7,468 nt of DNA from a virus (taxonomy: Duplodnaviria > Heunggongvirae > Uroviricota > Caudoviricetes). The notes beneath the pieces were generated by a model, which ran no database searches, had not been told where the DNA came from, and saw only the letters and a program-made list of their open reading frames with translations. The position numbers and the translations under genes are program-made. Shown one piece after another: positions 6,137-6,537 of this stretch. The DNA is taken from IMG/VR virus record IMGVR_UViG_2541047500_000013, one strand, 5' to 3'. Each line of letters opens with the position of its first letter. Within the stretch, counting starts at the first letter, position 1.

Positions 6137-6151
6137 TGCGGGTGCTTGAGG
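6137..6151 (+). promoter_or_regulatory. hok mRNA 5' element (tac/ucb-like) complementary to the 3' element at 6492..6507 (fbi-like)
   Basis: TGCGGGTGC-TTGAGG (6137..6151) pairs with CCTCAA-c-GCACCCGCA (6492..6507): 15 bp with one bulge. This is the long-range 5'/3' pairing characteristic of full-length hok-family mRNAs. Confidence 0.55.
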
Positions 6152-6229
6152 CTATCTGCCTCGGGCATGAACACCAACGGCAGATAGATAAAAGCCCCAC
6201 CCGACTATAAATCGAAGTGAGGCCCCTAT

Positions 6230-6442
6230 ATGCTCGTCACATATAGATTGCCTCTTACGGACCGAAAGGTCAAGGAGAAGCAGGCTATGAAGCAGCAAAA
6301 GGCGATGTTAATCGCCCTGATCGTCATCTGTTTAATCGTCATAGTGACGGCACTGGTAACGAGGAAAGACCTCTGCGAGGTACGAATCCGAACCGGCCAG
6401 ACGGAGGTCGCTGTCTTCACAGCTTACGAACCTGAGGAGTAA
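6230..6442 (+). CDS. mok: mok-like reading frame (N-terminal extension in frame with hok), 70 aa
   Basis: ATG 6230 with GAGG 7 nt upstream. Shares frame and stop with hok, as recalled for mokC/hokC in E. coli K-12. Confidence 0.55.
   Translation: MLVTYRLPLTDRKVKEKQAMKQQKAMLIALIVICLIVIVTALVTRKDLCEVRIRTGQTEVAVFTAYEPEE
6287..6442 (+). CDS. hok: Hok-family type I toxin (HokD/RelF-like), 51 aa
   Basis: RBS AAGGAG (6272..6277) then ATG 6287. MKQQKAMLIALIVICLIVIVTALVTRKDLCEVRIRTGQTEVAVFTAYEPEE is a single-pass membrane peptide near-identical to HokD as recalled. Confidence 0.9.
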   Translation: MKQQKAMLIALIVICLIVIVTALVTRKDLCEVRIRTGQTEVAVFTAYEPEE

Positions 6443-6510
6443 GAGACCAGGCGGGGGAGAAATCCCTCGCCACCTCTGATGTGTCAGGCATCCTCAACGC
6501 ACCCGCACTT

Positions 6511-6537
6511 AACCCGCTTCGGCGGGTTTTGTTTTTT
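6511..6537 (+). terminator. Intrinsic terminator of the hok mRNA
   Basis: AACCCGC-TTCG-GCGGGTT hairpin (6511..6528, UUCG tetraloop) followed by TTTTGTTTTTT. Confidence 0.75.

What the first reader, a model, noticed from the sequence alone, without database searches (positions are those of the whole stretch)
6137..6537. Intact hok/mok locus with preserved long-range 5'/3' mRNA pairing
Beyond the intact toxin and mok frames, 15 nt at the predicted mRNA 5' end pair with a segment just before the terminator. This is the regulatory architecture that keeps full-length hok mRNA translationally inert until 3' processing. Its preservation argues the locus is functional rather than a relic, here uncoupled from relBE and placed beside the cargo block.
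Basis: partly seen in the sequence, partly recalled or inferred. Interest (0 to 1): 0.45.

Follow-up and report, generated by a model that had tools for sequence, protein, structure and literature searches.

The report
Complete prophage hok/mok/sok toxin-antitoxin locus
This is an ordinary, complete copy of the well-known hok/sok killer-gene module carried by an E. coli O157-type lambdoid prophage, and the pairing between the two ends of its mRNA is real, conserved and already textbook knowledge.

Summary
Window 6140-6537 (+) is a full hok-family mRNA. It has a Hok/Gef toxin ORF (6287-6442, PF01848, 50/51 identical to K-12 HokD) and an in-frame mok ORF (6230-6442). The leader matches Rfam RF01794 end to end (103.9 bits), and a terminator closes the transcript. 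The 5' end GGGUGCUUGAGG (6140-6151) pairs with CCUCAA-C-GCACCC (6492-6504). This pairing is in the minimum-energy fold (pair probabilities at least 0.97; whole-mRNA z = -7.5). It is found in 43 of 48 distinct (non-identical) homologous loci, with compensatory changes at three positions, and RNAalifold predicts it independently. The conserved helix is 12 bp with one bulge, not 15 nt. Homology and a conserved -10 box put the transcript start at 6140, and the three extra complementary bases are subgroup-specific. In silico removal of the 3' partner moves the 5' end onto 6192-6198, as in the plasmid R1 model. A Sok-like antisense RNA (6238 to 6190, minus strand) is present, but its promoter matches consensus poorly. 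The locus is annotated hokD/gef in hundreds of E. coli genomes. The K-12 relBE-hokD arrangement is the truncated form. Whether this copy kills or is expressed was not tested. Verdict: already known, low interest.

The parts
6106..6133 (+). Putative hok promoter: -35 TTGCTG (6106-6111), 16-nt spacer, -10 TAGGAT (6128-6133), then 6 nt to the start at G6140.
   Evidence: Read from the sequence. A -10-like hexamer (TAGAAT, TATAAT, TACAAT, TATATT and similar) lies at the same distance from the conserved GGG in all 43 loci listed. The strict consensus scan found no promoter.
6140..6537 (+). Full-length hok mRNA, 398 nt.
   Evidence: Homology in 48 distinct loci starts at 6140. Terminator at 6511-6528 with a T-run. 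MFE -164.8 kcal/mol, z -7.5.
6140..6151 (+). tac: the 5'-terminal GGGUGCUUGAGG. It pairs with fbi in the full-length mRNA and with ucb once fbi is removed.
   Evidence: (pair probabilities 0.97-1.0).
6142..6168 (+). Metastable 5' hairpin of the nascent transcript (nt 3-13 pair with nt 19-29).
   Evidence: The first 30-50 nt fold into it at -18.8 to -19.0 kcal/mol. RNAalifold predicts pairs 9-13/19-23 across 37 loci.
6192..6198 (+). ucb / anti-SD (AAGCCCC). It pairs with the mok SD in the full-length fold and with tac in the 3'-truncated fold.
   Evidence: pairs 55-59 with 80-84 in the full-length fold; 1-8 with 53-59 in the 1-352 fold. The Rfam consensus structure agrees.
6219..6222 (+). mok Shine-Dalgarno GAGG, 7 nt upstream of the mok AUG.
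   Evidence: Sequence, plus the folds. Invariant in alignment A1.
6230..6442 (+). mok ORF, 70 aa, in frame with hok and containing it.
   Evidence: Similar to the annotated MokW of phage 933W.
6226..6246 (+). Sok-target hairpin (CUAUAUG-CUCGUCA-CAUAUAG), containing the mok AUG. Its loop starts with a CUCG (YUNR-type) motif.
   Evidence: Folds. This is the most variable part of the locus among close relatives. The YUNR reading rests on my own knowledge of the R1 system.
6190..6238 (-). Sok-like antisense RNA, about 49 nt: an 11-nt single-stranded 5' tail, then a G+C-rich hairpin and a U-run.
   Evidence: Mapped through alignment A1 from the sokW RNA annotated in phage 933W. Fold -18.7 kcal/mol. 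The region lies within the Rfam RF01794 match. The ends are not determined experimentally.
6245..6273 (-). Putative sok promoter: -35 TTGACC (6273-6268), 17-nt spacer, -10 CAATCT (6250-6245).
   Evidence: Positional homology with the sokW upstream region. The -10 matches consensus at only 2 of 6 positions, and the scan did not find it. Inferred only.
6250..6254 (+). dcb (GCCUC). It pairs with the mok SD region in the truncated fold.
   Evidence: Fold of nt 1-345: pairs 80-84 with 111-115. Element named as in PMC9841398.
6272..6277 (+). hok Shine-Dalgarno AAGGAG. It overlaps the sok -35 on the other strand.
   Evidence: Sequence. Invariant AAGGAG in A1.
6287..6442 (+). hok toxin ORF, 51 aa (MKQQKAMLIALIVICLIVIVTALVTRKDLCEVRIRTGQTEVAVFTAYEPEE).
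   Evidence: PF01848 HOK_GEF, 77.2 bits, E 7e-22. 50/51 identical to K-12 HokD and 46/51 to HokW. RefSeq annotates the same ORF as hokD.
6450..6471 (+). 3'-UTR stem-loop. It would be the 3'-terminal protective hairpin of the processed mRNA.
   Evidence: Conserved with compensatory changes (A1 columns 341-372). The role is inferred by analogy with R1.
6492..6504 (+). fbi: CCUCAA-C-GCACCC, the 3' partner of tac.
6511..6537 (+). Intrinsic terminator: a 7-bp stem, a GCTTCGGC-type tetraloop hairpin, and a T-run.

Best explanation
Window 6106-6537 is a complete hok/mok/sok type I toxin-antitoxin module of the hokD/hokW subgroup. It lies in the early region of an O157-type lambdoid prophage, between the paa/adfO adhesin gene and rem. 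A weak promoter makes a 398-nt hok mRNA starting at G6140. While the RNA is being made, a 5' hairpin (6142-6168) holds the 5' end. In the finished RNA, the 5' 12 nt (tac) pair with 6492-6504 (fbi), and 6194-6198 (ucb) covers the mok Shine-Dalgarno. In this state neither mok nor the coupled hok is translated, and Sok cannot bind. Slow 3' trimming removes fbi. The 5' end then switches to 6192-6198, the mok SD and the target hairpin (6226-6246) are exposed, and one of two things happens. Either the short-lived antisense Sok RNA (about 6238 to 6190, minus strand) pairs with the mRNA and triggers its degradation, or, if Sok is gone, Mok and Hok are translated and Hok damages the inner membrane. What is shown here: the sequence elements, the thermodynamic preference for each fold, and the conservation and covariation of the end-pairing. 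What is inferred by homology with plasmid R1 hok/sok and phage hokW-sokW: transcription, processing, Sok expression and toxicity.
For: The Rfam RF01794 match covers the full model, 103.9 bits against a gathering score of 59. Hok matches PF01848 at 77.2 bits. The MFE contains tac/fbi with pair probabilities of at least 0.97 and z = -7.5. Removing fbi in silico (nt 1-352 or 1-345) moves nt 1-8 onto nt 53-59 and forms the SD/dcb stem. The nascent 30-50 nt form the metastable hairpin. A 5'/3' duplex of -15 kcal/mol or better lies at +300 to +400 in 43 of 48 distinct homologous loci from Escherichia, Shigella, Kluyvera, Citrobacter, Pantoea, Erwinia and Photorhabdus. Among these, U-A changes to C-G at position 4 (10 loci), G-C to A-U at position 12 (11 loci) and G-C to A-U at position 11 (1 locus). 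On the MAFFT alignment, 91% of cells are paired against 33-54% when the partner column is slid, and no shuffle of 500 reaches the observed covariation score. RNAalifold predicts the end-pairing without being told. The element names and the model come from PMC9841398. HokW-SokW, whose locus is 85% identical, was shown to be a toxin with an RNA antitoxin. Near-identical copies are annotated hokD or gef in O157 genomes and PPompW phage records.
Against: Nothing about this copy was tested for expression, processing or toxicity. The consensus scan found no promoter on either strand. The inferred sok -10 (CAATCT) matches only 2 of 6 consensus positions, although hokC-type loci share the same one-base gap in the alignment there. 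Intact chromosomal hok loci have been reported not to give post-segregational killing. Most columns of the tac/fbi helix are invariant, so covariation rests on three positions, and much of it comes from one clade (Photorhabdus).
Confidence: 0.85

Rival explanations
1. The locus is intact in sequence but functionally silent or attenuated. On this view it is a hitch-hiking chromosomal or prophage hok copy that no longer kills. Its RNA architecture would be preserved only by recent common descent within E. coli prophages, not by selection on this copy.
For: Intact chromosomal hokA, hokB and hokC loci were reported unable to mediate post-segregational killing or to respond to rifampicin (summary). 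Both promoters match consensus poorly. Copies 99% identical or more are mostly within O157-type genomes, so there has been little time for decay.
Against: Every element is preserved, including those not needed for coding. The family-wide covariation shows selection on the end-pairing. Decayed relatives exist for contrast: K-12 hokD lacks the first 133 nt, and 5 of 48 loci lack an fbi. HokW-SokW, with 46/51 identical Hok, is active. R1 hok expressed from a single chromosomal copy is toxic.
Confidence: 0.2
2. The module works as described, but its biological role is not prophage stabilisation. Instead it helps phage release at induction, or aborts infection by other phages.
For: HokW-SokW of prophage Sp5 was reported to facilitate release of phage progeny (title and abstract). 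hok genes are about four-fold enriched in prophages. A phage-defence role of Hok is discussed in the same preprint.
Against: No data bear on this copy. It lies in the early region beside a moron, whereas hokW lies near the other end of the 933W genome. No enrichment of hok next to defence systems was found.
Confidence: 0.35
3. The 5'/3' complementarity is a chance match with no structural role.
For: A 12-nt G+C-rich segment can find partners by chance: 13 of 5000 shuffled 5' ends bind as well.
Against: It is present at the same relative place in 43 of 48 loci, with compensatory changes. It is predicted by the MFE, by the partition function and by RNAalifold. Controls with slid partner columns fall to 33-54% paired.
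Confidence: 0.01

Closest known systems
hok/sok (parB) of plasmid R1, the experimentally dissected paradigm
   Same: The set of elements and their order match: weak promoter, tac, metastable hairpin, ucb, mok SD, mok overlapping hok, antisense Sok with a single-stranded 5' tail plus terminator hairpin, dcb, 3' protective hairpin, fbi, terminator. The predicted switch is also the same: tac/fbi with ucb/SD in the full-length mRNA, then tac/ucb with SD/dcb after 3' trimming.
   Different: The toxin is only distantly similar. HokW, which is 46/51 identical to this Hok, shares 44% identity with R1 Hok. This copy is on a prophage rather than a plasmid. The Sok is shorter (about 49 nt by homology mapping). 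Nothing here is tested experimentally.
hokW-mokW-sokW of Stx2 phages 933W / Sp5 (VT2-Sakai)
   Same: Both are in lambdoid prophages of O157. DNA identity is 85% over 90% of the locus and Hok is 46/51 identical. The tac and fbi sequences are identical. HokW-SokW was shown to be a toxin/antitoxin pair.
   Different: The Sok-determining segment differs sharply: 30% identity over the Sok hairpin (a 21-nt indel) and 62% over the target hairpin, while the flanks are 93-98% identical. The terminator differs, and so does the position in the phage genome.
hokD (relF) of the Qin prophage, E. coli K-12
   Same: Hok is 50/51 identical. The coding region, 3' UTR, fbi and terminator are 98.5% identical over window 6273-6536. 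The downstream neighbours are the same (rem, DUF968/ydfU).
   Different: K-12 lacks everything upstream of window 6273: the promoter, tac, ucb, the mok start and Sok. relB-relE sits there instead. The window therefore holds the complete form of what is a truncated locus in K-12.
hokC (gef)/mokC/sokC-type chromosomal loci
   Same: The same architecture, with the tac/fbi pairing kept through G-U wobbles (loci L017, L018, L013, L014, L020).
   Different: About 78% DNA identity. They sit at a fixed chromosomal site rather than in a prophage.

Membership tests
[quoted passage not shown] | Small hydrophobic Hok/Gef toxin ORF of about 50 aa | tested here: met
   PF01848, 77.2 bits against a cut-off of 22, covering model positions 1-42 of 42. 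50/51 identical to HokD.
[quoted passage not shown] | mok reading frame that starts upstream of hok and overlaps it, with its own SD | tested here: met
   ORF 6230-6442. GAGG lies 7 nt upstream of the AUG. An ATG at or within 2 nt of this position is present in most aligned loci.
[quoted passage not shown] | hok mRNA leader with the family's sequence and structure (Rfam RF01794) | tested here: met
   103.9 bits against a gathering score of 59, model positions 1-157 of 157, E 2e-23.
[quoted passage not shown] | Long-range tac/fbi pairing of the mRNA 5' end with a segment just upstream of the terminator | tested here: met
   MFE and pair probabilities of at least 0.97. Found in 43 of 48 loci with compensatory changes at positions 4, 11 and 12. 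Predicted by RNAalifold. Shuffle and slide controls support it.
[quoted passage not shown] | Alternative tac/ucb stem and release of the mok SD once the 3' end is removed, plus a metastable 5' hairpin in the nascent RNA | tested here: met
   In silico only: folds of nt 1-352 and 1-345 and of nt 1-30 to 1-50.
[quoted passage not shown] | cis-encoded antisense Sok RNA with its own promoter and terminator, overlapping the mok translation-initiation region | tested here: inconclusive
   A hairpin plus U-run and an 11-nt tail are present where sokW is annotated in 933W. However, the -10 is a poor consensus match and no promoter was called.
[quoted passage not shown] | Own promoter and intrinsic terminator delimiting an mRNA of about 400 nt | tested here: met
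   A -10-like hexamer at fixed distance in all loci. Terminator at 6511-6528. Length 398 nt. The promoter is weak by consensus.
[quoted passage not shown] | 3' processing to a translatable mRNA, killing when Sok is absent, and rescue by Sok | not testable with these tools
   Needs Northern blots or RNA-end mapping and genetics. Shown for R1 and, for toxicity and rescue, for hokW-sokW.

The most novel reading that the evidence does not exclude
The stretch that sets Sok specificity (window about 6198-6249: the Sok hairpin, the target hairpin and the Sok 5' tail) may behave as an exchangeable, fast-diverging cassette inside an otherwise 88-99% conserved locus. This copy has a short Sok hairpin that is 92% identical to one in a Photorhabdus locus, and it lacks the 21-nt extension found in all other E. 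coli hokD/hokW-type loci examined. If so, co-resident prophage hok modules (up to 10 places per genome) would be kept mutually orthogonal by diversifying selection or recombination at the antisense-target interface, so that each prophage retains a private addiction module.
Probability: 0.3. Interest if true: 0.35.

Novelty: already known. Interest (0 to 1): 0.12.

Why it matters
It matters little beyond correct annotation. The tac/fbi end-pairing and the folding pathway of hok mRNAs have been known since the 1990s, and this sequence is annotated hokD/gef in hundreds of genomes. Three points are useful. (1) RefSeq-style annotation marks only the Hok ORF, whereas the functional unit is 6106-6537 and includes mok, Sok and the RNA elements. 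(2) The window shows the complete form of the locus that is truncated next to relBE in K-12. (3) The module sits directly beside the paa/adfO adhesin moron, so it could help retain a virulence-associated prophage. That last point is untested.

Tried and rejected
1. Chance complementarity: rejected by shuffles, conservation and covariation.

2. The 15-nt version of the helix starting at 6137: rejected as the RNA helix. The -10 box would be only 3 nt from such a start, homology starts at 6140, and the TGC/GCA extension is absent outside the hokD/W subgroup.

3. Consensus promoter scan: it found nothing on either strand. The promoters are therefore assigned only by position and homology.

4. I first recalled ucb/dcb as the pair CUCUUAC (6252-6258) with GUAAGAG (6439-6445). 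RNAalifold does predict that pairing as an invariant long-range helix. The literature defines ucb as the anti-SD near +55 and dcb as the partner of the mok SD, so I relabelled the elements. The 6252-6258/6439-6445 helix is not in this window's MFE, has no covariation, and is left unassigned.

5. The second half of the helix scored only 84% paired on the MAFFT alignment. This is because Photorhabdus loci lack the bulge and are shifted by one column. Per-sequence duplexes resolve the problem.

6. The 24-bp palindrome at 6071-6094 was checked as a possible repeat element. It is single-copy and confined to this paa-hok junction.

7. Large protein-database searches and structure prediction were not run. 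The identity of a 51-aa Hok that differs by one residue from HokD did not need them.

Full report
**What is there.** The window is the early region of a lambdoid prophage of the type integrated at ompW in E. coli O157:H7. The best whole-window matches are O157 chromosomes at 98.6-98.7% identity over 99% of the window. The gene order is a DicA-like repressor, a Cro/DicC-like protein, YdaT, replication proteins, DUF1627, a frameshifted fimbrial gene, the Paa/AdfO adhesin, hokD ('gef'), then rem. The finding covers the hok locus. Hok is ORF 6287-6442 (51 aa). It matches PF01848 at 77.2 bits and is 50/51 identical to K-12 HokD and 46/51 to HokW of phage 933W. An in-frame upstream ORF, 6230-6442 (70 aa), corresponds to mok. 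The leader 6140-6289 matches Rfam RF01794 over the whole model, at 103.9 bits against a gathering score of 59. The match is on the + strand, so that model describes the hok leader in its open fold rather than the Sok strand. An intrinsic terminator lies at 6511-6528 with a T-run to 6537.

**The observation.** The 398-nt RNA 6140-6537 has an MFE of -164.8 kcal/mol. The mean for shuffles is -122.2, giving z = -7.5, and none of 100 shuffles folds as well. In that fold, nt 1-6 pair with nt 360-365 and nt 7-12 pair with nt 353-358. In window coordinates, 6140-6151 pairs with 6492-6504, and C6498 is bulged. In the partition function each of the 12 pairs has probability 0.97-1.00. Only 13 of 5000 shuffled 5' 16-mers bind the last 100 nt before the terminator as well. 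The true 5' end is the best binder among all 16-mers of the mRNA.

That complementarity exists in the DNA, but three things argue it is not part of the RNA. First, homology with 48 distinct loci starts exactly at 6140. Second, every locus has a -10-like hexamer ending 6 nt before that G, so a start at 6137 would be only 3 nt from the -10. Third, the extra three pairs occur only in the hokD/hokW subgroup.

**Comparative test.** A scan of one genome per species returned 60 loci. They come from Escherichia, Shigella, Kluyvera, Citrobacter, Pseudocitrobacter, Pantoea, Erwinia, Kalamiella and Photorhabdus. In 43 of the 48 distinct sequences whose leader aligns from position 1, the first 12 nt form a duplex of -15 kcal/mol or better with a segment at +300 to +400. 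The pairs change in a compensatory way:
- Position 4 is U-A in 31 loci and C-G in 10.
- Position 12 is G-C in 30 loci and A-U in 11.
- Position 11 is G-C in 34 loci, G-U in 8 and A-U in 1.

On an unsupervised MAFFT alignment of 37 sequences, the named helix has 91% of cells paired. Sliding the partner columns by 1-3 drops this to 33-54%. None of 500 shuffles reaches the observed covariation score or the observed number of double changes. RNAalifold, given only the alignment, predicts columns 1-6 pairing with columns 405-410. The caveat is that most columns are invariant and much of the covariation comes from the Photorhabdus clade.

**Mechanism.** The R1 model, as summarised in PMC9841398, has three states.
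- In the full-length mRNA, tac/fbi closes the molecule and ucb sequesters the mok SD.
- After slow 3' trimming, tac pairs with ucb and the mok SD pairs with dcb. The RNA then becomes translatable and Sok can bind.
- In the nascent RNA, a metastable hairpin holds tac.

All three states are reproduced by thermodynamic folding of this sequence.
- Full length: G55-C84, C56-G83, C57-G82 and C59-G80 cover the GAGG at 6219-6222.
- With fbi removed (nt 1-352 or 1-345): nt 1-3 and 5-8 pair with nt 53-59 (6192-6198), and in the 1-345 fold GAGGC (80-84) pairs with GCCUC (111-115).
- The first 30-50 nt form a hairpin of nt 3-13 with nt 19-29 at about -19 kcal/mol.

A conserved, covarying stem-loop at 6450-6471 corresponds to the 3' hairpin that protects the processed R1 mRNA.

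On the minus strand, mapping the annotated sokW of 933W through the alignment gives an RNA from about 6238 to 6190. It has an 11-nt unpaired 5' tail followed by a hairpin and a U-run. Its promoter is assigned only by position: TTGACC, a 17-nt spacer, then CAATCT. It is a poor consensus match, and the scan called no promoter on either strand.

The steps shown here are the sequence elements, the fold preferences and the conservation. Transcription, processing, RNase III cleavage, Sok instability and killing are inferred from R1 and from hokW-sokW, for which toxicity and rescue by the antisense RNA were demonstrated.

**How common, and the relBE remark.** At least 80% of the locus is present in 3780 of 5426 complete E. 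coli genomes, with a median of 2 and up to 10 places per genome. It is also present in 108 phage records, where it is annotated gef, hok/mok, hokW/mokW/sokW or 'host killer'. K-12 matches only window 6273-6536. Upstream of that point K-12 has relB-relE, while the downstream genes (rem, DUF968) are the same as in O157 prophages. The relBE-hokD arrangement is therefore the truncated derivative, and the complete form in this window is the usual one. The paa-hok junction itself occurs once each in 580 genomes.

**Is it functional?** In favour: all coding and non-coding elements are preserved, the family shows selection on the RNA structure, and decayed relatives exist for contrast (K-12 hokD, and 5 of 48 loci without an fbi). 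Against: intact chromosomal hok loci have been reported not to give post-segregational killing, both promoters are weak by consensus, and this copy has not been tested. I put the chance that it is a regulated, toxic module at roughly 0.7-0.8. Its biological role is open: prophage retention, help with phage release as reported for hokW-sokW, or phage exclusion.

**Novelty.** The family, the tac/fbi pairing, its covariation, the chromosomal and prophage copies and their enrichment in prophages are all published. This sequence is already annotated. It is already known, and interest is low.

One feature is worth a note. The Sok-determining segment is the variable cassette of the locus. Among ten hokD/hokW-type loci it shows 65% mean pairwise identity, against 88-95% for the adjacent 5' leader, the dcb-to-hok-ATG segment and the hok coding region; the 3' UTR up to fbi is also fairly variable at 82%. 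This copy carries a short Sok hairpin that is 92% identical to a Photorhabdus locus and only 30% identical to otherwise 93-99% identical E. coli loci. That pattern fits selection for non-cross-reacting Sok/target pairs among co-resident copies. R1 hok was likewise not silenced by the five K-12 Sok RNAs. I did not test this idea further.

Noticed in passing
window 6425-6428: The hok Tyr47 codon is TAC followed by G. This TACG motif is the TadA A-to-I editing site reported to recode Tyr to Cys in K-12 hokC, hokD and hokE mRNAs (PMC5630033). TTACGA is nearly invariant in the 37-locus alignment.
   Followed up: partly
window 6071-6094: A perfect 24-bp palindrome, CCGATATGGGAATTCCCATATCGG, with an EcoRI site at its centre. 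It lies between the paa terminator (5958-5971) and the hok -35. The surrounding 71 nt are single-copy in 580 E. coli genomes, always at this junction, and are absent from other hok loci. Its function is unknown; it could be an operator or a recombination scar.
   Followed up: partly
window 6198-6249: This is the hypervariable Sok/target cassette. It shows 65% mean pairwise identity among ten close relatives, against 88-95% for the adjacent leader, dcb-to-ATG and coding segments. This copy lacks a 21-nt extension of the Sok hairpin present in the other E. coli hokD/hokW-type loci, and 6198-6222 is 92% identical to Photorhabdus locus L034.
   Followed up: partly
window 6140-6289: The Rfam family named 'sok' (RF01794) matches the + strand. 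It therefore models the hok mRNA leader in its open tac-stem conformation, up to the hok AUG, and not the antisense RNA itself.
   Followed up: yes
window 6252-6258 with 6439-6445: RNAalifold predicts an invariant long-range helix of CUCUUAC with GUAAGAG, the latter overlapping the hok stop codon, in all 37 loci. It is not in this window's MFE and shows no covariation. I could not assign it to a named element.
   Followed up: no
window about 4460-5030: Short broken ORFs between the DUF1627 gene and paa correspond to a fimbrial gene annotated as frameshifted with an internal stop in the O157 copy. This is a decayed cargo gene next to the intact paa.
   Followed up: no
window 6537 onward: O157 copies match at 99.5-99.8% only up to about 6536. 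The sequence just after the terminator (TTTTGTTTTTTCTGGTCGT) matches the Shigella flexneri locus L009 instead. This suggests a mosaic breakpoint at the hok terminator.
   Followed up: no
L035 (1413 and 2042), L032 (1369 and 1887), L049 (971 and 1500): Tandem pairs of hok loci about 520-630 nt apart in Photorhabdus and Pseudocitrobacter genomes.
   Followed up: no
L006, L027, L031: E. coli-like hok loci (80-90% DNA identity) sit on contigs labelled Veillonella parvula MAG, Xanthomonas pisi and Acinetobacter idrijaensis. The last two contigs are only 431 and 275 bp long. These most likely reflect contamination or mis-binning.
   Followed up: no
L030, L028, L044, L049, L059: Five of the 48 distinct leader-containing loci were set aside by the first filter (best duplex weaker than -17 kcal/mol or lying beyond +400). 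They are candidates for decayed or rearranged copies, in contrast with the window. L028 later showed a TCCACAACGCACCC partner at the relaxed threshold used.
   Followed up: partly
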